IMG/VR virus record: IMGVR_UViG_3300025083_000046
Span: 1-52,993 of that record
Length of the DNA stretch: 52,993 nt
Direction: 5' to 3' (one strand)
From: a virus
Taxonomy: Duplodnaviria; Caudoviricetes
In this document: positions 1,534-28,100 of the stretch, piece after piece
Numbering within the stretch: the stretch's first letter is position 1
Layout of the letters: every line of letters starts with the position of its first letter
Notes under the pieces: model-generated
Databases searched by the model: none
Told to the model about the DNA's origin: nothing
What the model saw: the letters and a program-made list of their open reading frames with translations, nothing else
Translations under genes and position numbers: made by a program

Positions 1534-3757
1534 CATATACAAAGAGGTGTTCGATATAATACCTACCACTGTTCTAAAGAATAAGAACAGAGCAAAGTCT
1601 TGGCTATATGGTTACAATCAGAAGTATGATATTGTTGTAATATCAAAGACTGGGGAGATAGGCCCGATATATAATATTAGTGGTCTACTTGTAGCACTTC
1701 CAAAACCTCCATCTAATCCAATATCAAGAAGTAAGGTAAAGAGTGAGCAGTATTGGGAAAGACAAGACTATCCTAAGCAGTTGTCTAAAATTAAATCAAT
1801 ATTCCAATGGAACGAAATGCCTTCGGCATTTAAAAATTTATGGGTAGATTATATTGAGACAGAGTTTGATCGTAGAGAGTATGGGCATTGGTTTATGCGT
1901 AATGGTAAACCTACTTATATCACTGGTTCTCATTATATGTATTTACAATGGACAAAGATTGATGTGGGATATCCTGACTTCCGGGAGGCTAATAGAATAT
2001 TTTATATATTCTGGGAGGCGTGTAAGGCTGACCATAGATCATTTGGAATTTGTTATTTAAAGATAAGACGTTCAGGATTTTCATTCATGGCATCTGAAGA
2101 ATGCACCAACATAGGAACTCTAGCAAAAGATGCTCGTATTGGAATCTTGTCTAAGACTGGAGCTGATGCCAAGAAAATGTTTACCGACAAGGTTGTTCCT
2201 ATATCAAACAACTATCCATTCTTTTTTAAACCCATACAAGATGGTATGGACAAACCAAAGACTGAGTTGGCATATAGAATACCAGCATCCAAGATTACCA
2301 AAAAGAATATGTCTACCATAGATGAAAACGATATGGAGGGGCTAGACACTACTATTGACTGGAAGAATACTTCTGACAACAGTTATGATGGTGAGAAGCT
2401 ACAGCTACTAATCCATGATGAGAGTGGTAAGTGGGATAAGCCTGATAACATATTAAATAACTGGCGTGTTACAAAGACTTGTCTTAGGTTGGGTAGTAAG
2501 GTTATTGGTAAGTGTATGATGGGTTCAACATCTAATGCTTTAGAAAAAGGAGGAGGTAACTTCAAGAGTCTATATAATGATTCCAATGTAAAGAACAGAA
2601 ATGCGAATGGTCAAACAAAGAGTGGACTGTATAGTTTGTTTATTCCTATGGAGTGGAATATGGAAGGGTTTATAGATAGATATGGAAATCCAGTATTAAG
2701 AACACCTGATAAACCTGTTGAAGGTATTGACGATATGCTTATAGATACAGGAGCAATAGACTATTGGGAGAACGAAGTTGATTCTTTAAAGTCAGATCCT
2801 GATGCCTTAAACGAATACTATCGTCAGTTTCCTAGAAATGAATCACACGCTTTTAGAGATGAGAGTAAACAATCGTTATTTAATCTAACAAAGATATATG
2901 CTCAGATAGATTACAATGAAAGTTTAATACAACAACAGTTTTTAACTAAGGGTACATTTAAGTGGTTAAATGGAGAGAAGGATACTAAAGTAGTTTGGAC
3001 TCCTGATAATCGTGGTAGATTTTTAGTTTCTTGGTTGCCGAGTGCAGCATTACAAAACAACATTATAACAAAGGGTGGAAGAAAACTTCCAGGTAATGAA
3101 CACATCGGAGCGTTTGGATGTGACTCCTATGATATATCAGGAACGGTGGGTGGTGGTGCATCTAATGGTGCGCTTCATGGGTTGACAAAGTTTCACATGG
3201 ACGATGCTCCAACAAATGAGTTTTTCTTACAATACATAGCAAGACCTCAGACTGCTGAGATATTTTTTGAAGAAGTATTAATGGCTTGTATATTTTATGG
3301 TATGCCTATACTTGTAGAAAATAATAAGCCAAGGCTACTATATCATTTCAAGAATAGAGGATATAGAGGGTTTAGTATTAATAGACCTGATAAGCATATA
3401 TCAAAACTTTCTAGAACTGAAAAAGAATTAGGTGGTATACCAAACTCTAGTGAAGATGTAAAGCAGGCTCATGCGACAGCTATAGAGTCTTACATTGAAA
3501 AATACGTTGGTATAGATATGGAGTCAACCTATCGAGAGTCTGATGAAATGGGGTCTATGTATTTCACAAGAACCTTAGAAGATTGGGCAAAGTTTAATAT
3601 AAACAATAGAACAAAGTTTGATGCTACAATTAGTTCAGGCTTGGCCATAATGGCGTGTCAAAAGCATATATATACACCACAAAAAACAGAGTCAAAAATA
3701 AGTATTAACTTTGCAAGGTATAGTAACACAGGTTCTATAAGTGAATTAAGGAAGTAA
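1511..3757 (+). CDS. terL: terminase large subunit
   Basis: Walker A-like LKIRRSGFS, Walker B LLIHDESGK, coupling motif MGSTSN, RNase H-like nuclease start AFGCDSYD, and late acidic KFDATIS; lies before the portal. The TTG start is uncertain. Confidence 0.9.
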   Translation: MQKDELNSIYKEVFDIIPTTVLKNKNRAKSWLYGYNQKYDIVVISKTGEIGPIYNISGLLVALPKPPSNPISRSKVKSEQYWERQDYPKQLSKIKSIFQWNEMPSAFKNLWVDYIETEFDRREYGHWFMRNGKPTYITGSHYMYLQWTKIDVGYPDFREANRIFYIFWEACKADHRSFGICYLKIRRSGFSFMASEECTNIGTLAKDARIGILSKTGADAKKMFTDKVVPISNNYPFFFKPIQDGMDKPKTELAYRIPASKITKKNMSTIDENDMEGLDTTIDWKNTSDNSYDGEKLQLLIHDESGKWDKPDNILNNWRVTKTCLRLGSKVIGKCMMGSTSNALEKGGGNFKSLYNDSNVKNRNANGQTKSGLYSLFIPMEWNMEGFIDRYGNPVLRTPDKPVEGIDDMLIDTGAIDYWENEVDSLKSDPDALNEYYRQFPRNESHAFRDESKQSLFNLTKIYAQIDYNESLIQQQFLTKGTFKWLNGEKDTKVVWTPDNRGRFLVSWLPSAALQNNIITKGGRKLPGNEHIGAFGCDSYDISGTVGGGASNGALHGLTKFHMDDAPTNEFFLQYIARPQTAEIFFEEVLMACIFYGMPILVENNKPRLLYHFKNRGYRGFSINRPDKHISKLSRTEKELGGIPNSSEDVKQAHATAIESYIEKYVGIDMESTYRESDEMGSMYFTRTLEDWAKFNINNRTKFDATISSGLAIMACQKHIYTPQKTESKISINFARYSNTGSISELRK
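3706..3713 (+). promoter_or_regulatory. Bacteroidota-type -7 promoter element (TAACTTTG) upstream of the portal gene
   Basis: Matches TAnnTTTG, about 45 nt before the portal ATG; no clear -33 element checked. Confidence 0.35.
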
Positions 3758-6193
3758 ATGAGAGAGGTAACGGTAAACATATCGCCTACAGGATTCCCAA
3801 GTCAGTTTGTTTCAGACGCTGAAAAGAAAACCGATGAGTTCGGTTTGCAGATTGGACAAGCTATTCAGTATGAGTGGTTTAAAAAAGATGGGACAAATTG
3901 TAGATTCTATAGCCAATGGGCAGAATTTAATAGATTAAGACTGTATGCTAGAGGTGAGCAGTCAATAGCAAAGTATAAGAATGAAATCGCCATAGATGGT
4001 GATTTGTCTTACATTAATTTAGATTGGACACCTGTACCTATTCTTCCAAAGTTTGTTGATATTGTTGTCAATGGAATGTCAGATAGACTATTCCATGTTA
4101 GAGCATATTCTCAAGATGCTTTATCAGCAGAGAAACGTTCTCAATATCAAGACATGATTGAAGCAGATATGGTTGCTCGTCCTGTACTAGAACAAATAAG
4201 TAAAGACTTTGGGGTTGATCCTTTTATGACTGACCCGCAAGAACTTCCTACTAATGACCAAGAGCTGTCATTATATATGCAATTGAATTATAAACCAGGT
4301 ATAGAGATAGCAGAAGAAGAAGCTATTAATACTGTGCTTGAAGAGAATCATTATCAAGATGTTAGAAAGCGAGTTGATTATGATCTCACAGTGCTAGGTA
4401 TAGGATGTACTAAGCATCAATTTTTACCCGGTCAAGGTATTCAGGTTGAATATGTAGACCCAGCAAATATTGTTTACAGCTATACCGAAGATCCTCACTT
4501 TAAAGATTGTTTTTACTGGGGAGAGATTAAGACTGTTCCAATGACAGAGTTGGTAAAAATTAATCCTGACATTACTGACAAGCAGATGGAAGAGATTAGC
4601 AAGTATAGTCAGTCTTGGTACGATTATTACAATGTGGCTCAACAATATCAGAACGATATATTTTATAGGGACTCTTGTACATTATTATACTTCAACTATA
4701 AAACCACAAACACATTTACTCATAAAAAGAAAAGACTTGAGTCTGGTGGGTATAAGGTAATTGAAAAGGATGACCAATTCAATCCACCTGCTGAAATGAT
4801 GGAAGAAGGTAGGTTTGAAAAGGTAGAAAAGAAAATAGAGGTTTGGTACGAAGGTATCATGGTTATGGGTACAAATATAATATTGAGATGGGAGATGATG
4901 GAGAACATGGTTCGTCCAAAGTCTGCTAGTCAATATGCTATGCCTAGTTATGTGGCGTGCGCTCCTAGAATGTACAAAGGAAACATTGAATCATTAGTTA
5001 GAAGAATGATTCCATTTGCTGACCTTATTCAAATTACTCATTTAAAGTTACAACAAGTAGTTTCTAGAGTTGTGCCTGATGGTGTGTTTATAGATGCCGA
5101 TGGTCTTAATGAAGTAGACTTAGGAACAGGTCAAGCATATAACCCTGAAGATGCACTTAGAATGTACTTTCAAACAGGTAGCGTTATTGGTAGAAGTTAT
5201 ACTCAAGATGGAGATTATAACCAAGCAAAAGTTCCTGTTACGCAGTTAACTGCAAATTCAGGTCAGGCTAAGATGGCTGCTTTGATTGGAAACTATAATC
5301 ATTATCTAGACATGATTCGTTCAGTCACAGGACTAAACGAGGCAAGAGACGGATCAACACCTGACCCTAACTCTTTGGTTGGTGTTCAAAAGTTGGCAGC
5401 ATTAAACTCAAACACTGCAACTAGACATATATTAGATGCTAGTCTTTATATTACACGCACAATTGCTGAAGGACTTTCTTGTCGTATATCGGACTTGTTA
5501 GAGTACGCAGATTTCAAAGATGAGTTTGCTATGCAGATAGGTAAATACAATGTTGGTATACTTGATGAGATTAAAGACTTGTATATATATGACTTCGGAG
5601 TATTTATAGATGTTGCTCCTGATGAAGAGCAAAAGCAGAAGTTAGAAGAGAATATACAAATGGCTTTATCTAAAGGAGACATAAACTTAGAAGACGCTAT
5701 AGATATTCGTGAGCTTCGTAATATTAAGTTGGCAAATCAATTGCTAAAAGTTAAGCGTACACAGAAGGCTGAGAAAGATCAGCAGATGGCTATGCAACAA
5801 CAGCAACAGCAGGCAGAGATTAATATGCAGTCACAACAGATGGCGGCACAAACTGCTATGCAAAAATTAGAAGCAGAGACTCAGTCTAAGATGCAAATCA
5901 AACAAGCAGAGATTGCATTTGAGATTGATAAGATGCAACAAGAAGCTCAATTGAAATTTGCATTAATGGAGAAAGAATTCCAATTAAATATGCAGATTAA
6001 AGGTGTAGAACAAAATGGATTAGCGGATAGAGAGGTTCAACGTGAAGACGCTAAGTCACAACGTATCAGTCAGCAAAATACTCAACAGTCTAAATTAATA
6101 GATCAGCGTAAAAAAGATTTACCACCTATTGATTTTGAATCAAATGAAGATTCATTAGATGGCTTTGACTTTGCTGAGTTTAACCCTAGATAG
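3758..6193 (+). CDS. portal protein
   Basis: 811 aa, directly after terL, with a long Q/M-rich C-terminal coiled coil (P22-like barrel), as in podovirus/crAss-type portals. Confidence 0.85.
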   Translation: MREVTVNISPTGFPSQFVSDAEKKTDEFGLQIGQAIQYEWFKKDGTNCRFYSQWAEFNRLRLYARGEQSIAKYKNEIAIDGDLSYINLDWTPVPILPKFVDIVVNGMSDRLFHVRAYSQDALSAEKRSQYQDMIEADMVARPVLEQISKDFGVDPFMTDPQELPTNDQELSLYMQLNYKPGIEIAEEEAINTVLEENHYQDVRKRVDYDLTVLGIGCTKHQFLPGQGIQVEYVDPANIVYSYTEDPHFKDCFYWGEIKTVPMTELVKINPDITDKQMEEISKYSQSWYDYYNVAQQYQNDIFYRDSCTLLYFNYKTTNTFTHKKKRLESGGYKVIEKDDQFNPPAEMMEEGRFEKVEKKIEVWYEGIMVMGTNIILRWEMMENMVRPKSASQYAMPSYVACAPRMYKGNIESLVRRMIPFADLIQITHLKLQQVVSRVVPDGVFIDADGLNEVDLGTGQAYNPEDALRMYFQTGSVIGRSYTQDGDYNQAKVPVTQLTANSGQAKMAALIGNYNHYLDMIRSVTGLNEARDGSTPDPNSLVGVQKLAALNSNTATRHILDASLYITRTIAEGLSCRISDLLEYADFKDEFAMQIGKYNVGILDEIKDLYIYDFGVFIDVAPDEEQKQKLEENIQMALSKGDINLEDAIDIRELRNIKLANQLLKVKRTQKAEKDQQMAMQQQQQQAEINMQSQQMAAQTAMQKLEAETQSKMQIKQAEIAFEIDKMQQEAQLKFALMEKEFQLNMQIKGVEQNGLADREVQREDAKSQRISQQNTQQSKLIDQRKKDLPPIDFESNEDSLDGFDFAEFNPR

Positions 6194-6210
6194 GGATAAA
6201 TTTTTTATTG

Positions 6211-6218
6211 TAACTTTG
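6211..6218 (+). promoter_or_regulatory. Bacteroidota-type -7 promoter element (TAACTTTG)
   Basis: Intergenic, 15 nt before the scaffold ATG; the same motif recurs before several late genes. Confidence 0.55.
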
Positions 6219-6233
6219 TAAAAATTAAATTAA

Positions 6234-7373
6234 ATGGAAATTAAAGTAAGAGCAGTAGAGGATCATGGAGAAAAGTCAGTTCAAGAAGTTGAACAAGAGT
6301 TGCTTGAGAAGCATGAACAACAACTTGAAGAAAGTGGTAGTAACGAATCAGGAAATGAATCAAGCCCTCCGAGTGCCGCCTCCACGCAAGAGCAAGAAGA
6401 TATACAGCCGCAAGGCGAAACACAAACTCAATCCTCAGAGTTAAAAGAGGAAGACGTTCTTTCATATATAGGAAAAAGATATGGTAGAGAAATATCATCT
6501 TTAGATGAACTAAATCAAGTTCGAGAAGAAGCTGAAGAGCTTCCTGAAGATGTGGCTACCTATCTTAAATTTAAAAAAGAAACTGGTAGAGGTTTAAATG
6601 ATTTTGTTAGTGCTAACAAAAATTATGATGACCTTGAGCCAGACCAACTCTTAGCAGATTATTATCGTCAGACTCAGAAGGAGTTAGATGCGGAAGATAT
6701 TAGTTACCTCATCAAAGACAAATTCGGTTATGATGAAGATTATGACGAAGATGATGTCATAAAGAAAAAGAATATCGCTAAGAAAAAGGAGCTTGCTAAA
6801 GCTAAAAATTTCTTTGAGGAATATAAGCAGAAATACTCAACCCCTCTAGAGTCTAGTACGGGGATGCCTTCTGTTGAAAACCAAGAAGAGTTTGAGGCTT
6901 ACAAGAAATATATAGATGATGCAAAGACGTATCAAGAGGAGCTAGAGAGAAAGTCAAATTGGTTTGTAAATAAAACCGAGGAGGTGTTCAACGATGATTT
7001 CAAAGGTTTTGATTTCAATATTGGAGAACAGCAAATAACATTTTCGCCTGGTGATAAGTCTGAGTTAAAGAAGAATCAGCTAGATGTAAACAACTTTGTA
7101 AATAAGTTTCTAGATGAATCGGGAATGATGAAGGATGCCAAAGGATATCATCGAGCATTATCGATTGCAATGAACCCTGAAAAGTTTGCTCAATTTTTTT
7201 ATGAGCAAGGGAAAGCTGATACGGTTACAGAGTCTGCAAAGAAGTCGAAGAATATAAACTTCAATTCTGTGCGATCTACACCAGAGGTTACCAACAAGGG
7301 GGGGACGCAAATTAAGGCACTCAGTTCGACTTCGAGCCGGGGTCTTAAAATTAGATCGAAAAAAAATAACTAA
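6234..7373 (+). CDS. capsid scaffolding/assembly protein
   Basis: Very acidic, helical 379-aa protein between portal and major capsid, with a basic C-terminal tail. Confidence 0.7.
   Translation: MEIKVRAVEDHGEKSVQEVEQELLEKHEQQLEESGSNESGNESSPPSAASTQEQEDIQPQGETQTQSSELKEEDVLSYIGKRYGREISSLDELNQVREEAEELPEDVATYLKFKKETGRGLNDFVSANKNYDDLEPDQLLADYYRQTQKELDAEDISYLIKDKFGYDEDYDEDDVIKKKNIAKKKELAKAKNFFEEYKQKYSTPLESSTGMPSVENQEEFEAYKKYIDDAKTYQEELERKSNWFVNKTEEVFNDDFKGFDFNIGEQQITFSPGDKSELKKNQLDVNNFVNKFLDESGMMKDAKGYHRALSIAMNPEKFAQFFYEQGKADTVTESAKKSKNINFNSVRSTPEVTNKGGTQIKALSSTSSRGLKIRSKKNN
6313..6444 (+). CDS. putative overprinted small basic protein (+1 frame inside the scaffold gene) with an ArfA-like motif
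   Basis: Manual translation MNNNLKKVVVTNQEMNQALRVPPPRKSKKIYSRKAKHKLNPQS*; an alternative upstream ATG is at 6265. Locally atypical GC-rich codons in the main frame. Confidence 0.5.
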   Translation: MNNNLKKVVVTNQEMNQALRVPPPRKSKKIYSRKAKHKLNPQS

Positions 7374-7411
7374 AAAAAGTCCTCTGAATAAAATAGGAGG
7401 CATTAAAAAAA

Positions 7412-8827
7412 ATGGCTGGTAATTTAGTCGCTGGTGGAGTTGCGTTGCAACCATCAGCAGAACAGGTAGCATTGTCTACCAATTACATTACAAACTTTGA
7501 TTTCTTGAATCAGTATCTTCCTGATACTTACGAGAAGGAGTTTGAGAGATATGGTAACCGTACCATCTCTGGATTTTTAAGAATGGTTGGCGCAGAGATG
7601 CCATCCAACTCTGACCTCATCAAGTGGGCAGAACAAGGACGTTTGCACACAAAGTACACTGCGTGTACATTAGCTACTTACACTGGTGCTGAAACAACTC
7701 AGACAGTTACAGTTCCACTTGCACAGTTAAACCCTGGTACAGGTGCAATCGCTGTTCGTGTTGGTCAGACAGTTTTTCTTTCAGACGAGACTGCTGCTTC
7801 AACATTTTCTAACAAAGCAATTGTTACTGCTGTTGGAACTGGTGGGCTTGCAGCTAACGAATTCACAATCGCATACTACGAAGCTACTCAAGCTGCTTAC
7901 GCTGCTGCAAGTACTGTTTCTATGTTTGCATATGGTTCTGAGTTTCAAAAAGGAACAAGTGGAATGGTAGGCTCATTAGAGTCTGATGACTTATTCCTTG
8001 AGAACAATCCTATCATCCTAAAAGATACTTACGCTGTAAGTGGGTCAGACATGGCACAGATTGGATGGGTTGAGGTTACAACTGAGAATGGAGCGAATGG
8101 ATACCTTTGGTACTTGAAGTCTGAGCATGAAACAAGATTACGTTTCGATGATATGCTTGAGACTGCAATGATTGAGGCTGTTCCTGCTGCTGCTGGTTCA
8201 GGTGCAGCTACTTCAGGATTTATTGGTTCAGAAGGTATCTTTAGTGCTGTAGGCGCAAGAGGTAATGTTTGGAACGGTGGTTTCCCTGTAGCATTAGCAG
8301 ACTTTGATGCTATCATTTCACGACTTGATAAGCAAGGTGCAATTGAGGAGAATGCAATCTTCCTTGATCGTCAGTTTGGTTTTGCAATCGATGATATGCT
8401 TGCTGCTCAGAACTCTTATGGAGCAGGTGGTACATCTTACGGATTGTTTGACAATGACGAGGAGATGGCACTTAACCTTGGATTCTCAGGATTCCGAAGA
8501 GGTTATGACTTCTACAAGACGGATTGGAAATACCTAAATGACCCAACAATGCGTGGTGATTTAGTTGGTGGTAAAATAAGTGGACTTTTAGTTCCTGCTG
8601 GTTCAACTAGCGTTTACGACCAAGTGTTAGGAAAGAACGCAAAGCGTCCATTCCTTCATGTTCGTTACCGAGCTTCTCAGACTGAGGACAGACGATACAA
8701 AACTTGGATGACTGGTTCTGCTGGTGGTGCAAGAACATCTTCTCTAGATGCAATGGAAGTTAACTTCCTATCTGAGAGAGCTGTTTGTGTCATGGGAGCA
8801 AACAACTTTGTATTATTCCAAGGATAA
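7412..8827 (+). CDS. major capsid protein
   Basis: 471 aa after the scaffold, with highly biased codon usage and a strong downstream terminator. Includes a T/A-rich beta insertion near the N-terminus, like crAss/flavophage capsid proteins. Confidence 0.85.
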   Translation: MAGNLVAGGVALQPSAEQVALSTNYITNFDFLNQYLPDTYEKEFERYGNRTISGFLRMVGAEMPSNSDLIKWAEQGRLHTKYTACTLATYTGAETTQTVTVPLAQLNPGTGAIAVRVGQTVFLSDETAASTFSNKAIVTAVGTGGLAANEFTIAYYEATQAAYAAASTVSMFAYGSEFQKGTSGMVGSLESDDLFLENNPIILKDTYAVSGSDMAQIGWVEVTTENGANGYLWYLKSEHETRLRFDDMLETAMIEAVPAAAGSGAATSGFIGSEGIFSAVGARGNVWNGGFPVALADFDAIISRLDKQGAIEENAIFLDRQFGFAIDDMLAAQNSYGAGGTSYGLFDNDEEMALNLGFSGFRRGYDFYKTDWKYLNDPTMRGDLVGGKISGLLVPAGSTSVYDQVLGKNAKRPFLHVRYRASQTEDRRYKTWMTGSAGGARTSSLDAMEVNFLSERAVCVMGANNFVLFQG

Positions 8828-16330: not shown

Positions 16331-19300
16331 ATGAAAATAGAAAGAAGTTTTGTTAGAGGTCGCATGAATAAAAGTGTTGACGAGAGACTCTTGCCTCAAG
16401 GTGAGTATGTTGACGCAATGAACATTCGACTAGGGTCTACAGAAGAAAGTGAAATAGGTGCAATTGAAAACGCTAGAGGTAATGAGCTTATTGCTGAGGT
16501 GCAATATCTAAACCAATCATTATCTTCTCAAGCAGTATGTTTAGGCTCTCTTGAAGATTCTGAGAACGAAACAATATATTGGTGTGTTCACGATCCTGCA
16601 AATGCACAAAGTACTACAACTGGTAAGGTAGATATAATTGTGTCATACAATACTTTAAATGATGCTCTTACATATCATGTGATATCTACTGATGATGGCG
16701 ATGGTGTAAACACTGCATTGAACTTTAGCACTACATATCGTGTAAATGCAATGACATTCATTGATGGTCTATTGTTTTTTACAGACAACAACAATCAGCC
16801 GATGCGAATCAATGTTGATCGTGTGTATAACGAGCCTAGTGTTAAAGACCTTTTAGTTATCGTTCAACCTCCTAATGAATCTCCAACCGTACAGTTACAA
16901 ACTGTTGCAGGTTTAGAGAATTACATGGACACTAGATTCATATCATTTGCATATAGGTATAAGTATAGAGATGGAGAGTACTCAGCGTTGTCTCAGTTCT
17001 CTGAGATAGCATTCGACCCAAAGCCATTTTCTTTAAGTGTTGATACTTATCAGAATGAGGGAATGGTTAATGAGTTTAATTCTGCATCTGTTTCTTTTAA
17101 TACCGGAGGAGAAAATGTAACTGGTATTGACCTTGTATTTAAACTTTCTAATCAATCGGTTGTAAATGTAATCGAGAAGTTTGATAAGTCAAGTCAAGGT
17201 TGGTTGGACAATCAGACTAAAACTAGAAACTTTACGAACAGAAAGATTTATACCACGCTAGGGACGAGTGAGATACTTAGAGTATTTGACAATGTGCCAA
17301 GAAAAGCACAGGCTCAGACTATAATGGGTAATCGCTTAATGTATGGTAATTATGTTGATGGATATGATGTGAAAGATTCTGATGGTAATGATTGTGACAT
17401 AGTATATAATACTGAGTTAGTAAGTGAAGATTTGACTCCTGTAGAACTAGGGGTTTCATTTGACCCTTTCGATTTTACTATAGACCCTGCTGTAACTAGA
17501 ACAGTTTCTGATGGTCAAATAGATATTGATTGTAGTGCAATTGCTTCAGGCTTAGAGCAAGGAGCAAGTCTTGATTTTACAATTAGAATAGTACATGATA
17601 GTTTTTCTGGATCGGGCGCACCTAGTACTACACAAGCTCCTTTTACAATTACATTCTCAGTAGTATTAGACCAACCATATGCAAGTATTGCAAATCTTGT
17701 TTCAAGCGCAGTTTTTACTGAAGCCTTACAAGGAATTACTTTCCCTACAGACCTAACTCAATGCGGCACTACTGCTCAAGGGTTTTCTACTACCGATCAA
17801 TTTAACTGTACAATACAAGCTCCTTTAGACCCTTCTATTACTTGGAACAAAGACATGAGTAGTCCGACTGCTACGATTGGTGTTCCTATTACAGCTATTG
17901 CTTATAATACAAATACAATTAGAATCACACTAATTGCAATGAGGTATGTAGATGCAGCAACTCCTGGAGTGTATTTATATGAATACTTTGGTTCATCTGG
18001 TGCTGGTGCAACATTTAGTACGTCTGCAAATAAAAGAAGTCTTCATAGTGATAGAGATTATGAAGTAGGCATTGTTTATATGGATGATTTTAATCGTTCA
18101 ACTACAGCATTAGTAAGTACAAACAACACAGTGTTTGTGCCACCTGGAGAGTCTACAAGTAAAAATAGTATAAAGGTTACTATCCCTCCTAATCAAAAAC
18201 CTCCATCATGGGCAACGAGGTATAAGTTTGTGGTCAAACCTTCTAGTATTGACTATGAGGTTATATATAGTGATTTGTTTTTTATAGACCCTGCTGATAG
18301 TGCAACATATGTAAAGTTAGAGGGGGACAATCAAACTAAAGCTGCTAAAGGTGATAGGCTTAGAGTTAAAAGGGATACCGATGGAGCATTGAGTCAGCGT
18401 ATAGAAACAGTAATATTAGAGTTACAGTCTCAACCTGCAAATTTTATTTCTGACAATGTTGATGGTGATGGAGATAATATTTCAGAGCCAGGTGGCTTAT
18501 ATATGAAAATTAAACCTAATGGTTATAATACTCAGTATGACCCTAATAGTTTTCTTGGTGGCAGTACGGTAACTAATAGTTCGGACGTTCCTAACTCTTT
18601 AGGGATTCCGCCTTCTAATAGACCTAACTATATGCCTACCGTAAATTATTTATGTTCAATACCTAACCCTAATTTTGATTCTGTTGCTGGGCCATCATTG
18701 ACAAACCTTCCCTTTTTGCCTTGGACTATTCCAGCTAATAGTAGAGTGGTGTTTGACATAACCTTTAAAAGAGAAAGAAGGGGTAATGCTTGTGACCAGT
18801 ATATTTATAGGTTTCAAAAAGAAATTACTGCTTCAGAAGATTATTCAAGTTTGTACGATTTTGTAATAGGTCAAAATGTAAATTTTGATAGTGGGGAAAA
18901 TGATCCTAATAATGGTGAAAGCCCTAATCAAAATGTTTTTGATCCTAACATTGTGCAGTTACCTTTTGATATATCTACATCTCCAGGTATGCCTATAGGC
19001 CCAGCCGCTACTCCCGATGCTCCTGCTCCCATAACAGGAACAAATCAATACGGGTTTGTGGGTAGTGATGTAGATTGGACAGGTAGTGGTGGAAGTTCTT
19101 CTGCTGATTATTATGCTGGTAAACAATTCTTTCAAATAAGAAGTGGAATGCAGCCTTGTGATAGTGCAACAATTTTTAACAAGCCTAGACAATCTATTCT
19201 TAGCGCATCCGTTAGAGTATTTACTTCTGAGAACTTGTTGATATTTGAAACAATTCCAGTTGAAAGTGATGCAAATATATACTATGAAGGCAGTGATAGT

Positions 19301-21055
19301 TATCCTATTACCAATGGCTTTCATATGGGTAATGCGGGTAATCAAACTGCAACTGATTCAGCTATAATAAACTCATCATTCTTTAATTGCTTCTCATTTG
19401 GCAATGGAGCTGAGAGTTATAAGATTAGAGACAGCTTGGCTGCCCCATCATTTAGATTGGGCGAGCGTACTACCGCAGTATCCGAGCAAGATTTTAAGGA
19501 AGCACATAGATTTGCTGATATTACATATAGTGGTATATACAATGCTGACACGAATGTTAATAGATTAAATGAATTCAATCTAGGGACAGCAAACTTTAAG
19601 GAATTAGAGAAGAGCTTTGGGCCTATTAGAGTGCTTGATGCAAGACAAACCGATATCCTTACGCTACAAGAGGATAAGATATCCTATGTGTTGTCTAGTA
19701 AGACTTTACTATCTAGCGCATCAGGAGGGGGTAATGTTGCAGCAATACCTGAAGTGTTAGGTAATCAAATAGCAAGAATTGAGAAGTATGGTATTAGTAA
19801 TAATCCTGAGAGTTTTGTTTCGTGGGGGTTTGATAAATTCTTTACAGATACTAAACGAGGAGCAGTACTTCAATTAAAAGGAAGTGGACAAGCAGAGCAG
19901 TTAAAAGTTATATCAGACACTGGTATGGGGTCATGGTTTAGAGATTACTTTATTCTTACGCCTAACACACAGAAGTTAGGTGGATACGATCCATATATGA
20001 ATGAGTATGTTTTGTCAGGCAACTTAACATCTCTACCTACAGCACCTGTTATTTTAGAGTGTGGTGCAGATTATAGAGTATACACATCAGGATCAGGAAC
20101 AACGAATTGGGAAGTACTTTTAAATGAACCTGTAGGTACATCTACTGTAAATTGGACTGCATCATTTAAAGACCCCTCTACAACAATAACTGTGAGCGTT
20201 GCTTATAATGGTGTTGTATATACATCAGGTACTACAAGTGCATCTTCTGGTAGCTTTACTTTTGATAAAAACTTCGCTGGTGTTAGTGAGGCTCAAGTGG
20301 GTGTTGTCATTGTTGGAAGCGCAGCAGACTTTACTGTAAATGTAGGATGTCCTGTAGTGACAACATTGAATGTTGTTAAAGTGTGTTTGAATAACAATAC
20401 ATACAATGGTCAGTACATTCACAACGATTACTATTGGACTCAAGGTACATTTGACAGTCCTACAAGTAGCGACTTAGTGTTACTTCAAGCGCAAGATAAT
20501 ACACCTATAAACTTTGCAATATCTCAGTATGATGTGTTGTCAGGCCCTTCGGGTGGTGGTGTTATTCCTCCTGTGCCTACTGTTGCTGATCCAGTTACAA
20601 TTCGAATTCAATCTACGAAGATTGGTTTTGATGATTTCAACTTTGACCCCACAGTGCATCAGTTAAGATATGCTTTAGAGTCTACCCTTTATGGTAACAC
20701 TCCTGCTGACATGAACACCTTACTAGGTTTATCTACGATACTTGCTCCAACGCAAAACCCTACGACAGGTGTATACTACTACGACATAAACTATGTTCAG
20801 TCAGGAACATTCAAGCCATACTTATACTTAATATATAGTTACATAACCTGTGAAAGTCTTGGTTCAACTTGTAAAGAGTATAGTGTTGAGAACACTGCTG
20901 CTTTTGCTGCTACAATTAGATACAATGATTGCTCAGGTGTTCTTCAAACCTTAAATGTAAACCCAGCAACAACAATTACCTTATGTATACAGAGTATAGT
21001 GGCTTATAACACAGACGCTTTAAATGTTAACTTAATAGATTGTAGCTGTCCATAA
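16331..21055 (+). CDS. tail nozzle/stabilisation protein (P22 gp10/crAss muzzle-like), N-terminal part with inserted domains
   Basis: Starts F..GRMNKSVDERLLPQGEYVDAMNIR; beta-propeller-like repeats (GISNNPESF, FFTDTKRGAVL, GGYDPYMNEYVLS). Confidence 0.75.
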   Translation: MKIERSFVRGRMNKSVDERLLPQGEYVDAMNIRLGSTEESEIGAIENARGNELIAEVQYLNQSLSSQAVCLGSLEDSENETIYWCVHDPANAQSTTTGKVDIIVSYNTLNDALTYHVISTDDGDGVNTALNFSTTYRVNAMTFIDGLLFFTDNNNQPMRINVDRVYNEPSVKDLLVIVQPPNESPTVQLQTVAGLENYMDTRFISFAYRYKYRDGEYSALSQFSEIAFDPKPFSLSVDTYQNEGMVNEFNSASVSFNTGGENVTGIDLVFKLSNQSVVNVIEKFDKSSQGWLDNQTKTRNFTNRKIYTTLGTSEILRVFDNVPRKAQAQTIMGNRLMYGNYVDGYDVKDSDGNDCDIVYNTELVSEDLTPVELGVSFDPFDFTIDPAVTRTVSDGQIDIDCSAIASGLEQGASLDFTIRIVHDSFSGSGAPSTTQAPFTITFSVVLDQPYASIANLVSSAVFTEALQGITFPTDLTQCGTTAQGFSTTDQFNCTIQAPLDPSITWNKDMSSPTATIGVPITAIAYNTNTIRITLIAMRYVDAATPGVYLYEYFGSSGAGATFSTSANKRSLHSDRDYEVGIVYMDDFNRSTTALVSTNNTVFVPPGESTSKNSIKVTIPPNQKPPSWATRYKFVVKPSSIDYEVIYSDLFFIDPADSATYVKLEGDNQTKAAKGDRLRVKRDTDGALSQRIETVILELQSQPANFISDNVDGDGDNISEPGGLYMKIKPNGYNTQYDPNSFLGGSTVTNSSDVPNSLGIPPSNRPNYMPTVNYLCSIPNPNFDSVAGPSLTNLPFLPWTIPANSRVVFDITFKRERRGNACDQYIYRFQKEITASEDYSSLYDFVIGQNVNFDSGENDPNNGESPNQNVFDPNIVQLPFDISTSPGMPIGPAATPDAPAPITGTNQYGFVGSDVDWTGSGGSSSADYYAGKQFFQIRSGMQPCDSATIFNKPRQSILSASVRVFTSENLLIFETIPVESDANIYYEGSDSYPITNGFHMGNAGNQTATDSAIINSSFFNCFSFGNGAESYKIRDSLAAPSFRLGERTTAVSEQDFKEAHRFADITYSGIYNADTNVNRLNEFNLGTANFKELEKSFGPIRVLDARQTDILTLQEDKISYVLSSKTLLSSASGGGNVAAIPEVLGNQIARIEKYGISNNPESFVSWGFDKFFTDTKRGAVLQLKGSGQAEQLKVISDTGMGSWFRDYFILTPNTQKLGGYDPYMNEYVLSGNLTSLPTAPVILECGADYRVYTSGSGTTNWEVLLNEPVGTSTVNWTASFKDPSTTITVSVAYNGVVYTSGTTSASSGSFTFDKNFAGVSEAQVGVVIVGSAADFTVNVGCPVVTTLNVVKVCLNNNTYNGQYIHNDYYWTQGTFDSPTSSDLVLLQAQDNTPINFAISQYDVLSGPSGGGVIPPVPTVADPVTIRIQSTKIGFDDFNFDPTVHQLRYALESTLYGNTPADMNTLLGLSTILAPTQNPTTGVYYYDINYVQSGTFKPYLYLIYSYITCESLGSTCKEYSVENTAAFAATIRYNDCSGVLQTLNVNPATTITLCIQSIVAYNTDALNVNLIDCSCP

Positions 21056-25199: not shown

Positions 25200-28100
25200 A
25201 TGTTTGAAGTAAAAGACCTTTACGATTTAACTTTACCAGGCGCATTTGCTTCGGCAGAAGAGTGGGTACAGTTTTCATCATCTGCTAGCCCTGAAGACTT
25301 ATATGGTTTATTGCAGGATGGTGCGTTTAGTTCAGTAGAGGAATTTCAACAGCAAGTTAATTTTGGAGCATCTCCTTTAAAAAAAAAAGAAGATACGGTA
25401 TCCGTATTGGAGGATGGTTCTTCGGACTTACAAGAGCCTAGTGTTCAGGTTGAGGAAGAGCAGATTGACTTTGACCCTACTGCGGGAATAACAGCACTAG
25501 AAGAAACAGGGGTACTACCCACTCAAGCACAACGAGATTTTACACAAGAACCATTAGGGCCTGTTCAAAAAGTTCCTACAAAAGAGGAGCAGATAGAGGT
25601 GGTAAATAAATACTTATCACCTGAAAGAGAAACAGGGGAGATGGACGCTTTAGTAAAAAGAAGAAGATCATCAATGACTTCAAAATTAAAACCTGTTCTT
25701 ACTCAAGAAGGTTTAGAAAAGAATCAGAAAGATTCTCAAGTTAAATATATTATTGAAAGTCTTGATGAAGCTGATCGTTTAAATGTAGTTGCAAATTTGG
25801 CATCTATAGATGGCGAGATTACCGATGAACAATTATCACAATTAAAAAGTAAAGCAGATGCAAATATAACTTCTAAGTATGGAGAGGAAGAGATGTCTCT
25901 TTTAAATAAAATTACAGGTGGTGTAGATGCTAAAGATGTATTTAATAAATCTATACGATCTACTAATAAGTCTATAATTGATGATTTAGTTGTTGAAGGA
26001 GATGAAACTGCTACAGTAGCAAACTTAAACAATGAGTTTGCTGGAACACCATTTTCTTTTTCAGAAGCCATAATAGGTTCAGATGCAGTTGAGGTTAGCG
26101 TACTTGATGTGTCAGGCGTACCTATTAATAGTAAGATTGTACGGATAGATGATGCTATTAAAGGAAGTCAGAAATTAAAAGACTTTATGGCAAAAGCCAA
26201 TCTCTCAAAGGGTAATAAAGAATTTTTACAAGGTAAGATTAATGGTAAAGACATCAGCAATCTTCCAATGGATCAAAAGCGTTTAGCTAATTATAAGTAT
26301 ATGCTAGAGAACAAAGATAAGTTCTCAGCAGGTAAAGGTGTAGGGTTTAGTATTAATGCAGACGCTATCATGCGTTTTGTAAACGAGAACCCTGGTTTCT
26401 TTCCACCTGAAGAATTACAAAGCATAAAGCTACAACTTGATGCAGCATTAGCAGGTCAATACAAAGAGGATAAAGAATTAGAAGGTTCATTCTTTGGTTC
26501 ATTGGGAGAATCCTTTTTAAAAGGAGCAACACAGACATCTAAGTTTACTACTAACCTTGGCATTGATATAGGAGGGGCTTTGATGCCTAGTATGTTTATG
26601 CCTTCAAATTCATTTAGTGCTATAAACTTTGACGAGAATGGTAATCGATTATCGGATAGTGAGGTTATAGATAAAGTAAAGAAAGAAGGTAAGAGAGAGA
26701 TGATAGCGGCAATGGACAACGCTGTTGAATCATCCTTTACTGGTACTACTCAGGCGTGGATGAATAGTGAGGAAAGAAATGATTTAGCAAAAGCATTAAA
26801 CTTTGTGTTTGAAAGTCTTGGAGTTGTGGCTTCAGTAGGTGCTAATAAATTAGCACTAACACCCGCAGCCGCTAAGACACTAAATGGTCTAGCGTTCTTT
26901 GCATATGCTGCCAATGGTATTGAAGATGAAATGGCAGGTACTGAATACGATGAATTGTCTGAGTGGAAAAAGAAACTTATATCATTCCCATATGGAGTAA
27001 TGATTGGTGCTTTAGAAAACTTAGGATGGGAGGCATCAACAGGTGCGTTTGGAAATAAGGTGTTCGACAAAATATCTAAGGGAATAATTAGCAGGGCTAT
27101 GAAGAGTGTTCCTAAGAACGCATCTGAAAAAGTTATTAAAACAGCAATAGAAAACAGTACCAAGGCGGCAATAGCAGATGGTACAATTAAGATTATTAGT
27201 GGTGCTTTAAGTGAAGGACTTGTTGAAGGAACTCAAGAGTTTGGAGATGTTGGTTTAAAAAATGTGGTCAATCTTATAATGGATAAGGATTACTTTGCTG
27301 ACGCTCCTGATTTAAGTACTAAGGAGGGTTGGTTAGAAACGATAAAGCAAGCAAAAGAGTCTGGCTACTATGGCTTACTAGCGGGTGGTAGTTCAGCAGG
27401 TGGTGGAGGTATCATTCAAGGAACTAAAAAGCGACTACAAAGAGATGCTGACATCCGAGAGTACAATGAGAAAAAGCAAGCCCATACCAATAAGACTCAA
27501 AGAGAAAAATTAATTTTTAATATTAATAATGCACAAAGGCAGGGGCAAATGACTGCCGAACAAGCAGAGGCTGCAAAGGAGCAAGTTCTTGAGGATGCTG
27601 CTACCTATGAACAGATACCTGATGAGGGGCTATCTAATAAAAATAAATTAGAATCATTTGATTTAATTACTGAAAGAAACAATCTAGAGAAAGAGATTGC
27701 CGGAAAGAATGAAGAGCTTGTTACGAAACAGAGGGATCGTATACGAGATATTAATGCACAACTAACAATAATAGGAACACAAGATGCCACTACAGAGCAA
27801 GAAGCAAGCGGTTTGGATGAGGATCAACAAGCCAGAAATGTACAACAAATGGAGGAAGGAACACCCCAACCAGAACCTAAGCAGACTACCGCTGAAGAAG
27901 TTGAAGTCAAAGAAGAATTAAAACCTACCGAAGAGCAACGTGAGAAGCTAGAGAAGCAAGCGGTAAGAGAGTTAAAGAAAGAGAATCGTAAGACTAGACG
28001 AGAAGGATTTAAGGGTGACAAAATTAAGGGTACTCGTAAGAAGTATGAGCCTACTCAAGAAGAGATTGACGCTAGAGTTGATGAGTTATTTCAAGCACAG

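What the first reader, a model, noticed from the sequence alone, without database searches (positions are those of the whole stretch)
6265..6444. Hidden +1-frame gene inside the scaffold gene with an ArfA-like ribosome-rescue motif
Seen: the acidic, low-complexity N-terminal linker of the scaffold contains a +1 ORF, MNNNLKKVVVTNQEMNQALRVPPPRKSKKIYSRKAKHKLNPQS (6313-6444; longest start 6265). Bases 6361-6420 are GC-rich with codons unusual for this genome in the main frame (CCG AGT GCC GCC TCC ACG), as expected under dual coding. Known: ArfA has a basic KKGKGSYxRKxKH segment that enters the mRNA channel of stalled ribosomes; YSRKAKH matches the YxRKxKH core. Inference: a late-expressed ribosome-binding peptide (rescue or translation take-over) that gene callers miss. 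Caveat: Glu-rich frames give Lys/Arg-rich +1 frames automatically.
Basis: partly seen in the sequence, partly recalled or inferred. Interest (0 to 1): 0.8.

Follow-up and report, generated by a model that had tools for sequence, protein, structure and literature searches.

The report
Hidden basic mini-gene inside scaffold gene
A 43-codon gene for a very basic mini-protein is read in a second frame inside the head-scaffold-position gene of this marine phage; selection has kept it there in many relatives, and its tail resembles the part of the bacterial ribosome-rescue factor ArfA that plugs the ribosome's mRNA channel, though that function is untested.

Summary
The +1 ORF is real and is a gene. 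Its family-consistent form is 6313-6444 (43 aa); the 59-aa form from 6265 is not conserved.

In relatives picked through the host protein, the selection signature switches frame over the linker. Frame +1 pN/pS is 0.27-0.43, against a minimum of 0.65 in 279 control windows. Frame 0 is 0.84-1.47, against a control maximum of 0.77. A second set of 63 nested copies, in scaffold homologues only 32-50% identical, gives 0.28 against 1.21.

The peptide belongs to an uncharacterised phage small-protein family: 55 called proteins and 59 clusters at 50% identity. Eight of 80 viral loci carry free-standing copies. The gene is accessory: 27 of 55 distinct scaffold relatives lack it.

It is not an ArfA family member. 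The Pfam ArfA model finds nothing, and ArfA's invariant KGKGS is absent. Its tail nevertheless resembles ArfA's mRNA-channel tail beyond what composition explains:
- ArfA gives the top four PDB hits, but only at E 0.58-0.97.
- hhalign gives 51% probability.
- 1 of 20,000 tail shuffles reaches the observed score.

Earlier notes of this scan report the same kind of nested gene in other genomes (e1-5854043, e1-6267413, e1-6219162).

The parts
6313..6444 (+). Nested gene: 43 codons plus TAA, in frame +1 of the host gene. Product: MNNNLKKVVVTNQEMNQALRVPPPRKSKKIYSRKAKHKLNPQS.
   Evidence: ORF seen. It aligns over its full length with the family. A six-frame search of the window with family profile A3 hits 6310-6441 at E 7.8e-22, but the window peptide is one row of A3. 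Frame +1 pN/pS is 0.27-0.43.
6265..6312 (+). Probably not part of the gene.
   Evidence: Main-frame codon periodicity here. The ATG at 6265 is absent in L008, L012, L014 and L015. Family members begin at the position that aligns with 6313.
6370..6426 (+). Basic tail RVPPPRKSKKIYSRKAKHK, the part that resembles ArfA residues 28-45/46, including the K-H pair.
   Evidence: BLASTP 9/18 identities, E 3e-4 for this single comparison. hhalign A3 against ArfA alignment A5: 51% probability over 26 columns. PDB profile search: top 4 hits are ArfA at E 0.58-0.97. Shuffle controls.
6346..6366 (+). Conserved N-terminal helix region (QEMNQAL here; QEW..AL in the family).
   Evidence: AlphaFold2 model from A2: helix at residues 12-18, block pLDDT 91. 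A18 and L19 are invariant, E14 nearly invariant.
6234..7373 (+). Host gene: a 379-aa acidic protein in the scaffold position, between the portal gene (3758-6193) and the major capsid-like gene (7412-8827).
   Evidence: ORFs. PHROG portal and virion structural hits for the neighbours, and phrog_16786 (unknown function) for the host. 496 relatives in viral contigs.
6330..6420 (+). Linker-coding stretch of the host gene. Frame 0 evolves as if unconstrained but stays open.
   Evidence: Fitch changes per 10 codons: main-frame position 1 = 25-34, position 3 = 8-20, which is the reverse of the rest of the gene. Frame 0 pN/pS is 0.84-1.47.
6442..6444 (+). Stop codon of the nested gene (TAA). It is built from host codons GAG TTA A.. 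of the conserved host motif SSEL.
   Evidence: Codon alignment. The nested frame ends at this same place in 24 of 27 distinct relatives. L052, L020 and L023 end about 5, 1 and 1 codons earlier.

Best explanation
Bases 6313-6444 are a real 43-codon gene nested in frame +1 inside the part of the scaffold-position gene that encodes a floppy acidic linker. The linker tolerates almost any residue, so selection at these bases acts on the nested frame.

The nested gene is probably translated from its own ATG on the late head-gene mRNA. This is inferred. The context is A-rich with no Shine-Dalgarno sequence, as recalled for Bacteroidota.

Its product is a member of a phage-wide family of 36-65-aa proteins. 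Each has a short conserved N-terminal helix (L-T-x-Q-E-W-x-x-A-L) and a basic tail (K-N/S-K-K-x-Y-x-R-K-x-K-H-K).

The single most likely mechanism is inferred, not shown. The tail binds 16S rRNA in the empty mRNA entry channel of the host 30S subunit, as the ArfA and BrfA tails do. The conserved N-terminal half engages a partner, either a release factor or another ribosome site. The phage would thereby recycle or control ribosomes late in infection.

My odds: real, selected nested gene about 0.93; ribosome or mRNA-channel binding about 0.4, of which RF-dependent rescue is about half.
For: Gene reality:
- In 27 distinct relatives picked by the host protein, variability per codon position inverts over 6339-6415.
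- In 87-nt windows starting 6300-6360, frame +1 pN/pS is 0.27-0.43. That is below all 279 control windows (minimum 0.65). Frame 0 is 0.84-1.47, above all controls (maximum 0.77).
- Paired changes are silent in +1 but radical in frame 0. For example, CCG AGT against GAG AGT or GAG GGT is Pro to Glu in frame 0, but CTC CGA against CTG AGA or CTG AGG is Leu-Arg in both.
- An ATG lies upstream in 26 of 27 and 68 of 69 nested copies.
- Replication: 63 distinct nested cores give nested pN/pS 0.28, host 1.21 and third frame 1.07. Their hosts are scaffold homologues 32-50% identical to the window's; the four ~54-55%-identical hosts were excluded before this count.
- Family size: 55 called small proteins and 59 representative clusters.
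- In 8 of 80 loci the gene stands alone between other genes.

Ribosome reading:
- Profile A3 against 177,635 PDB sequences gives 7 hits at E<=10. The top 4 are all ArfA, but at E 0.58-0.97.
- hhalign A3 against an ArfA alignment: 51% probability, P 1.5e-4.
- BLASTP: 9/18 identities.
- Shuffles reaching the observed score: 15 of 20,000 (whole peptide), 1 of 20,000 (tail), 3 of 20,000 (ArfA tail).
- The language-model atlas lists an ArfA-domain cluster at rank 14, score 0.90.
- The aligned K-H pair is the motif that ArfA and BrfA use to contact U534 in the mRNA channel (passages of PMC6881298; PMC8012679).
Against: Against the ribosome reading:
- The Pfam ArfA model finds nothing in the peptides or in the six-frame window at E<=10.
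- A PDB search with the narrower profile A2 gave 0 hits at E<=10.
- The ArfA hits are not significant on their own (E about 0.6).
- KGKGS, invariant in my ArfA alignment, is absent.
- There is no likeness outside the tail.
- The resemblance is uneven across the family: P0030 is reached by 252 of 3,000 shuffles.
- All the likeness measures read the same roughly 19 residues, so they are not independent.
- The atlas recognition value is below the level at which a high score counts.
- Free-standing copies sit next to unrelated genes: SPFH, an SLT-like lysozyme, a 5' nucleotidase. None is a translation gene.

Against importance: 27 of 55 distinct relatives lack the gene. Five complete relatives without it have no copy elsewhere.

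No translation evidence exists. Contigs in metatranscriptome libraries cover the gene in relatives but do not show transcription or start sites.
Confidence: 0.4

Rival explanations
1. The nested gene is real, but its basic tail binds something other than the ribosome. Candidates are phage DNA (a charge-neutralising or packaged internal peptide made alongside head proteins), RNA in general, or a host defence or regulatory target. On this view the ArfA likeness is convergence of lysine-rich nucleic-acid-binding tails.
For: The gene sits in the head module, inside the scaffold-position gene. The ArfA similarity is confined to about 19 basic residues and is only borderline database-wide (E 0.58). 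The same tail also hits DUF7230 and small PHROGs of unknown function weakly, and ArfA itself hits DUF7230 at E 0.11, which suggests a generic basic-tail signal. No translation genes lie next to the free-standing copies.
Against: Order-specific similarity to ArfA exceeds what composition gives. ArfA, rather than a histone-like or DNA-binding protein, tops the PDB list. Free-standing copies are not in head modules, so a capsid-specific role is not general.
Confidence: 0.45
2. The +1 frame is reached by a programmed +1 (or -2) ribosomal frameshift from the scaffold frame. This would give a short scaffold N-terminus fused to the basic tail, rather than a separately initiated peptide.
For: The +1 frame is open from 6259 in the window, so a shift anywhere in 6259-6440 would give a fusion. 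One relative, L019, has no ATG, GTG or TTG in the open +1 stretch.
Against: An in-frame ATG is kept in 26 of 27 and 68 of 69 nested copies. Free-standing family members start at the aligned position with Met. In L005 and L006 a +1 stop lies directly before an ATG, so there the tail can only be reached by a shift after that stop or by initiation at that ATG. I found no conserved slippery site, but I did not search for one systematically.
Confidence: 0.05
3. There is no second gene. The conservation reflects an RNA or DNA element, or codon and composition effects in an acidic linker, and the open +1 frame is a by-product.
For: The stretch is unusually G+C-rich.
Against: Three-base periodicity and pN/pS point to the +1 frame specifically. 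Arg and Leu are kept through codon-family switches. RNA folding is no more stable than shuffles (z = 0.11). No Rfam match lies within 6265-6444. Homologues exist as stand-alone genes with no overlapping frame.
Confidence: 0.03

Closest known systems
ArfA (alternative ribosome-rescue factor A, Pfam PF03889) of E. coli and other Gamma/Betaproteobacteria
   Same: Both are small proteins: active ArfA is about 55 aa, this peptide 43 aa. Both have a basic tail with the ordered pattern R-V-...-K-x-K-...-Y-x-R-K-x-K-H. Identity is 9/18, and 26 columns align by hhalign. The shared K-H pair is the motif that contacts 16S rRNA U534 in the mRNA channel (passages of PMC6881298).
   Different: No Pfam ArfA hit. 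The KGKGS motif, invariant in my ArfA alignment, is replaced by K-K-x. The N-terminal half is unrelated, with no counterpart of the RF2-binding strand or F25 (passages of PMC6299226). The nested gene has its own conserved stop codon, whereas arfA is expressed from a truncated non-stop mRNA (passages of PMC8012679). ArfA is reported only from Gamma- and some Betaproteobacteria and the B. subtilis group (passage of PMC11633108), whereas this phage's cultured relatives infect Flavobacteriia.
BrfA (Bacillus) and ArfT (Francisella): independently evolved release-factor-dependent rescue mini-proteins
   Same: They are small (about 62 and 40 aa) with a positively charged C-terminal tail that probes the empty mRNA channel. 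BrfA shares only the K-H motif with ArfA. They show that this job has been solved several times by unrelated small proteins.
   Different: I made no sequence comparison with BrfA or ArfT, because no tool gave me their sequences. Neither appeared in the PDB profile search, although a BrfA structure (6SZS) is cited in PMC8012679.
Same-strand nested (overprinted) phage genes, such as lambda Rz1 inside Rz and the phiX174 overlaps (recalled from my own knowledge; the reviews PMC8227390 and PMC6195259 were seen only in a search listing)
   Same: A short gene lies wholly inside a longer one on the same strand in another frame. The embedded frame is under its own purifying selection.
   Different: Here the host is a head-scaffold-position gene and the embedded gene lies under a disordered acidic linker. 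The embedded gene also has stand-alone homologues in unrelated phages. The two products have no evident shared function.
Pfam DUF7230 (PF23876) and small PHROGs of unknown function (phrog_6310, 18092, 2701, 37108)
   Same: These are families of 42-48 aa with a similar basic segment. 13 of 20 nested peptides hit DUF7230 at E down to 2.6e-4, and family members hit these PHROGs at E 0.001-0.1.
   Different: All scores (11-20 bits) are below the DUF7230 cut-off of 27 bits, and the window's own peptide does not hit it. A true DUF7230 member in a Sphingobacteriales MAG (36.9 bits) has a different sequence pattern. No function is known, and no paper holds the word DUF7230.

Membership tests
ArfA (PF03889) | Match to the curated Pfam ArfA model at or above 25.5 bits | tested here: not met
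   No ArfA hit at E<=1 or E<=10 for the window peptide, 20 nested peptides or 10 family members. A six-frame search of the window gave 0 matches at E<=10. The control genome E. coli scores 89.7 bits.
ArfA (PF03889) | Conserved KGKGS motif in the tail | tested here: not met
   K34 G35 K36 G37 S38 are invariant in my 10-sequence ArfA alignment, which includes three divergent members. The family has K-N/S-K-K-x at this place, with no Gly.
ArfA (PF03889) | Y-x-R-K-x-K-H tail including the K-H pair that contacts U534 | tested here: met
   Window peptide YSRKAKH against ArfA YMRKGKH. Y, R and K are invariant and H nearly invariant in A2. The role of K-H is taken from passages of PMC6881298.
ArfA (PF03889) | N-terminal part (residues 15-31, with F25) that extends the RF2 beta-sheet | tested here: not met
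   hhalign aligns only from ArfA residue 28 onward. The AlphaFold2 model predicts a helix, not a strand, at residues 12-18. The feature itself is taken from passages of PMC6299226.
ArfA (PF03889) | Expression from a truncated non-stop mRNA, regulated by trans-translation | tested here: not met
   The nested ORF ends at an in-frame stop codon in all 27 distinct relatives. There is no unusually stable hairpin. The feature is taken from passages of PMC8012679.
ArfA (PF03889) | RF2-dependent peptidyl-tRNA hydrolysis on non-stop ribosomes | not testable with these tools
   This needs biochemistry.
DUF7230 (PF23876) | Match at or above the 27-bit gathering score | tested here: not met
   Best scores are 13-20 bits in 13 of 20 nested peptides and 11-20 bits in 9 of 10 family members. 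The window peptide gives none.
Same-strand nested (overprinted) coding gene | Purifying selection specific to the alternative frame, in relatives chosen independently of that frame | tested here: met
   Frame +1 pN/pS is 0.27-0.43 against a control minimum of 0.65. Frame 0 is 0.84-1.47 against a control maximum of 0.77. The position-wise change counts invert.
Same-strand nested (overprinted) coding gene | Conserved start and stop codons, with the frame kept open | tested here: met
   ATG present in 26 of 27 and 68 of 69. The stop is at the same place in 24 of 27 distinct relatives. The gene is present in 28 of 55 distinct relatives of the unbiased set, so it is not universal.
Same-strand nested (overprinted) coding gene | Evidence of translation (ribosome profiling or mass spectrometry) | not testable with these tools
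   Only contigs from metatranscriptome libraries were available. They show neither starts nor translation.
Uncharacterised phage small basic protein family (this report's A3) | Full-length alignment with the pattern L-T-x-Q-E-W-x-x-A-L-(R/K)-x-P-x-P-x-K-(N/S)-K-K-x-Y-x-R-K-x-K-H-K | tested here: met
   The window peptide aligns from Met 1 to the end. The profile built without outside sequences (A2) finds 55 called proteins down to E 4.9e-13 and 59 clusters.

The most novel reading that the evidence does not exclude
Flavobacteriia phages carry their own release-factor-recruiting ribosome-rescue factor, or an mRNA-channel plug. It would be a fourth, independently evolved ArfA/BrfA/ArfT-like mini-protein, hidden in a second reading frame of the most highly expressed late head gene. 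It was probably born by overprinting of an acidic linker and later exported as a stand-alone gene to other phages. It would let the phage recycle or commandeer ribosomes stranded on degraded host mRNA in hosts that have no ArfA.
Probability: 0.2. Interest if true: 0.85.

Novelty: new variant of a known kind. Interest (0 to 1): 0.66.

Why it matters
It adds a well-supported case of dual coding. A disordered linker of a structural gene serves as the carrier for a conserved second protein. This shows why small phage genes escape annotation: the records of cultured relatives that I read show no such gene, and those phages lack it.

The product defines a widespread, unstudied family of phage mini-proteins. 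Its only resemblance to anything known is to the ribosome-probing tail of ArfA.

If that resemblance reflects function, it would be a phage-encoded factor acting on the mRNA channel. I found no report of one in the papers I could search. It would also give a directly testable 43-residue peptide, both for studying ribosome control by phages and as a channel-binding probe.

Tried and rejected
Searches that found nothing or nothing useful:
- PDB profile search with the narrow alignment A2: 0 hits at E<=10. The broader A3 was needed to see ArfA.
- Foldseek of the AlphaFold2 model against the PDB: 0 matches. The model is only two short helices, so this says little.
- tblastn of family member P0003 against 50,697 GenBank phage records: no match at E<=0.01.
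- Profile search of six GenBank phages: 0 of 6 have the family. They are Maribacter phage Panino, Flavobacterium phages elemoE, elemoC and elemoD, a Manatee Spring podovirus and Cellulophaga phi46:3. No cultured carrier was found among those tested.
- Five complete relatives without the nested gene: no copy elsewhere.
- RNA element reading: folding z = 0.11. Rfam gave only a sub-threshold isrF hit outside the region.
- tRNA and tmRNA: none in the window.

ArfA diversity: a class-wide search centred on a MAG titled Pseudomonas gave only 3 of 300 genomes with ArfA. My ArfA alignment is therefore shallow: 10 rows, 7 of them enterobacterial.

Neighbours of the free-standing copies gave no common theme.

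Metatranscriptome libraries: contigs about 91-92% identical cover the whole stretch in X4 and 6236-7500 in X5. Contigs cannot show transcription, strand or start sites, and DNA may be present in such libraries. Parts without cover in X1 and X6 mean nothing.

Complex prediction was not used. No partner protein is known, and the ribosome cannot be modelled with it.

The first presence/absence regex was too strict and mislabelled several carriers. It was replaced by hmmsearch.

Supplements of the papers were closed. The ArfT and BrfA alignments and the ArfT family list of PMC6514570 may bear on whether this family was already linked to them.
Full report
WHAT IS THERE. The window is an IMG/VR virus record of 52,993 bases, 87% complete by CheckV. 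Positions 6234-7373 (+) encode a 379-aa acidic protein. It lies between a P22-like portal gene (3758-6193) and a major-capsid-like virion protein gene (7412-8827). This is the scaffold position. The label is positional: homologues in Elemovirus records are annotated 'structural protein'. The capsid protein's nearest cultured relatives are phages of Flavobacterium (68 records), Cellulophaga (15) and Maribacter (1), so the host is very probably a marine member of the Flavobacteriia.

THE OBSERVATION. The stretch 6361-6420 has 58.3% G+C in a 37.6% genome, which puts it in the top 0.38% of 60-base windows. It uses main-frame codons that are rare elsewhere in the window: CCG 4%, TCC 4%, ACG 8%, GCC 9%.

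IS IT A GENE? A scan of viral contigs with the host protein found 496 relatives, of which the best 80 were given. These were chosen without regard to the +1 frame. Two loci with cut genes (L017, L045) were dropped, which left 60 distinct genes including the window's.

In 27 distinct genes the +1 frame reads ..EW/M..ALRVPPP..KK.YSRKAKHK..PQS*. The host protein over the same bases differs freely, for example SPPSAAST against STEGATAT.

Parsimony counts on a tree of these 27 show a reversal. Everywhere else the third codon position of the host frame changes most (about 20-45 changes per 10 codons). Over 6339-6415 the first position changes most (25-34) and the third little (8-20). That is the periodicity of the +1 frame.

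Nei-Gojobori ratios between the two subgroups, in 87-nt windows starting at 6300-6360, are 0.27-0.43 for frame +1 and 0.84-1.47 for frame 0. In the 279 windows downstream of 6444, frame +1 is never below 0.65 and frame 0 never above 0.77. These pairs are not independent, so I treat this as an outlier test and not as a probability.

Single examples make the same point. CCG AGT, GAG AGT and GAG GGT are Pro/Glu-Ser/Gly in the host frame. In +1 they are CTC CGA, CTG AGA and CTG AGG, which is Leu-Arg each time. Keeping Arg across the CGN/AGR codon families is selection on the amino acid, not on the bases.

RNA folding of 6300-6450 is no more stable than shuffles (z = 0.11). No Rfam family matches within the ORF.

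EXTENT AND START. The stretch 6265-6312 has ordinary host-frame periodicity. The ATG at 6265 is missing in several close relatives. An ATG 5-15 codons before ALRVP is present in 26 of 27. L019 has no ATG, GTG or TTG. L005 and L006 have a +1 stop immediately before the ATG that corresponds to 6355, which leaves a 29-aa form. The form from 6313 aligns from its first residue with the family.

The stop codon is made from the host's conserved SSEL codons. The upstream context is A-rich with no Shine-Dalgarno-like motif. That fits what I recall of Bacteroidota initiation, but it is also simply the composition of this coding region.

A FAMILY, WITH STAND-ALONE MEMBERS. A profile of 20 nested peptides (A2) found 55 small proteins that public gene callers had called (36-65 aa, E down to 4.9e-13). 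It also found 59 clusters at 50% identity in an exhaustive HMM search. All but three are 32-111 aa long; those three are long proteins matched in several short stretches.

- In 72 of these 80 the peptide lies in frame +1 of a long ORF. In 8 (L089, L091, L096, L114, L117, L122, L135, L139) no long frame overlaps it, and it sits in a gap between same-strand genes unrelated to the window's.
- All 68 complete host ORFs are homologues of the window's scaffold-position protein (31.7-55.1% identity, median 35%). The peptide begins 94-364 nt after the host ATG.
- After four loci from the first set's clade were dropped, 63 distinct nested copies align without gaps over 26 codons. They give pN/pS of 0.28 (nested frame), 1.21 (host frame) and 1.07 (third frame).

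This second set was picked by likeness of the peptide. That lowers pN by construction, so it is a replication of the pattern and not an independent proof.

Over the same bases the window's nested core is on average 54% identical to these copies, and the host-frame peptide 38%.

DISTRIBUTION. In the set picked by host protein, 28 of 55 distinct proteins carry a nested family member and 27 do not. On a tree of the C-terminal 290 residues of 119 distinct host proteins, presence and absence need at least 7 changes. Five complete relatives without it have no copy elsewhere at E<=1. The same search finds the window's copy at E 7.8e-22, though that copy is a row of the query.

So the gene is old in this scaffold family, often lost, and accessory.

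In 185,579 species genomes only 13 loci were found, all on MAG contigs. Six of them are titled as Bacteroidota lineages. This is essentially a phage family. None of six GenBank phages tested has it.

THE ARFA QUESTION. E. coli ArfA was taken from the annotated K-12 record.

Membership fails:
- The Pfam ArfA model matches none of the peptides and nothing in the six-frame window.
- KGKGS, invariant in my 10-row ArfA alignment, is absent.
- Nothing aligns upstream of ArfA residue 28.
- The nested gene has a normal stop codon.

Resemblance holds for the tail:
- BLASTP gives 9/18 identities (RVPPPRKSKKIYSRKAKH against RVEKNKKGKGSYMRKGKH), E 3e-4 for this one comparison.
- Profile-profile comparison gives 51% probability, P 1.5e-4, over 26 columns.
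- Only 15 of 20,000 shuffles of the peptide, 1 of 20,000 of its tail and 3 of 20,000 of ArfA's tail reach the observed score. Other family members vary from 0 of 3,000 to 252 of 3,000.
- In an unbiased search of 177,635 PDB sequences, the four best of seven hits are ArfA chains, though at E 0.58-0.97.
- The language-model atlas lists an ArfA-domain cluster (rank 14, score 0.90) and a DUF7230 cluster (rank 12). The recognition value is below the level at which such scores carry weight.

These measures all read the same short segment and the comparison was suggested post hoc. I take them together as a moderate lead.

The aligned K-H pair is the one feature that ArfA and the unrelated BrfA share, and both use it to contact U534 in the mRNA channel (passages of PMC6881298; PMC8012679). 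ArfA is reported only from Gamma- and some Betaproteobacteria and the B. subtilis group (passage of PMC11633108). A Flavobacteriia phage would therefore not have taken it from its host.

MECHANISM. Shown: a second, selected reading frame; a conserved start and stop; a protein family with stand-alone members.

Inferred: translation from its own ATG on the late head mRNA; a helix-plus-basic-tail mini-protein (AlphaFold2 mean pLDDT 79.7, helices at 12-18 and 33-39); and binding of the tail to nucleic acid.

My single most likely target is the 30S mRNA entry channel (about 0.4). The conserved N-terminal half would then engage a release factor or another ribosomal site. The combined alternatives in which the tail binds DNA, other RNA or another target are together about as likely. 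Frameshift fusion (about 0.05) and 'no gene' (about 0.03) are minor.

NOVELTY. Nested same-strand genes in phages are a known kind (recalled: Rz1 in Rz, phiX174). I found no paper that describes this family, a gene nested in a scaffold gene of Flavobacteriia phages, or a phage-encoded ArfA-like factor. The searches were 'DUF7230' (0 papers), ArfA with bacteriophage (7 papers, none on this), ArfT with ArfA and phage (2), overlapping gene with scaffolding protein (listing only), and phage-encoded with ribosome rescue (listing only). Subscription journals and supplements were not searchable.

Earlier notes of this scan report the same kind of nested basic peptide in scaffold genes of other genomes: a follow-up (e1-5854043) and two first-reader notes (e1-6267413, e1-6219162). 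This window is therefore a further instance, here tested independently.

VERDICT. The hidden gene is real (about 0.93). The ArfA-like function is an open, testable lead (about 0.4 for ribosome binding, about 0.2 for rescue). The kind is a new variant of a known kind. Interest is 0.66.

Noticed in passing
It has no Pfam hit at E<=1 and only a weak PHROG hit (phrog_14333, E 0.17). No conservation test was done.
   Followed up: partly
L187, L190, L191 (Flavobacterium Elemovirus records), host-gene homologues: The homologue of the 'scaffold' gene is annotated 'structural protein' in the Elemovirus GenBank records (in elemoC/D the portal and capsid genes carry the same label). The scaffold label in this report rests on gene position only, and the protein may be present in virions.
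   Followed up: no
L005 and L006, positions about 3119-3208; L019 3074-3211: Natural variants of the nested gene. L005 and L006 have a +1 stop just before an internal ATG, which leaves a 29-aa form with PPL instead of PPP. L019 has no ATG, GTG or TTG in the open +1 stretch. These may be decaying copies or may use other starts.
   Followed up: partly
L177 1474-1620 (-) (Sphingobacteriales MAG, G008:C58): A true DUF7230 member (49 aa, 36.9 bits) lies in the same MAG that also holds a copy of the nested-gene family on another contig. E. coli ArfA itself hits the basic part of the DUF7230 model at E 0.11. This hints at a loose super-group of small proteins with ArfA-like basic tails, or at a shared composition artefact.
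   Followed up: partly
L135 3909-4835 and L096 1506-2927: Two of the eight free-standing family copies lie next to SPFH/Band 7 proteins. The L135 hit is strong (E 2.7e-21). The L096 hit is weak (E 3.6e-4, below the cut-off).
   Followed up: no
window 6708-6787 (+): A sub-threshold Rfam match to isrF (19.1 bits against a gathering score of 40, E 0.0075) lies inside the host gene. It is probably chance.
   Followed up: no
window 5900-7500: Contigs about 91-92% identical cover this stretch in marine metatranscriptome libraries of at least two studies (X4 whole stretch, X5 6236-7500). This is compatible with expression of the head genes in nature, but contigs prove neither transcription nor start sites.
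   Followed up: partly
window 25200-36011 (+): A single 3,603-aa ORF follows a 1,574-aa ORF (16331-21055) in the structural arm. Such giant virion or ejection proteins are typical of these Flavobacteriia podoviruses (recalled). Not examined.
   Followed up: no
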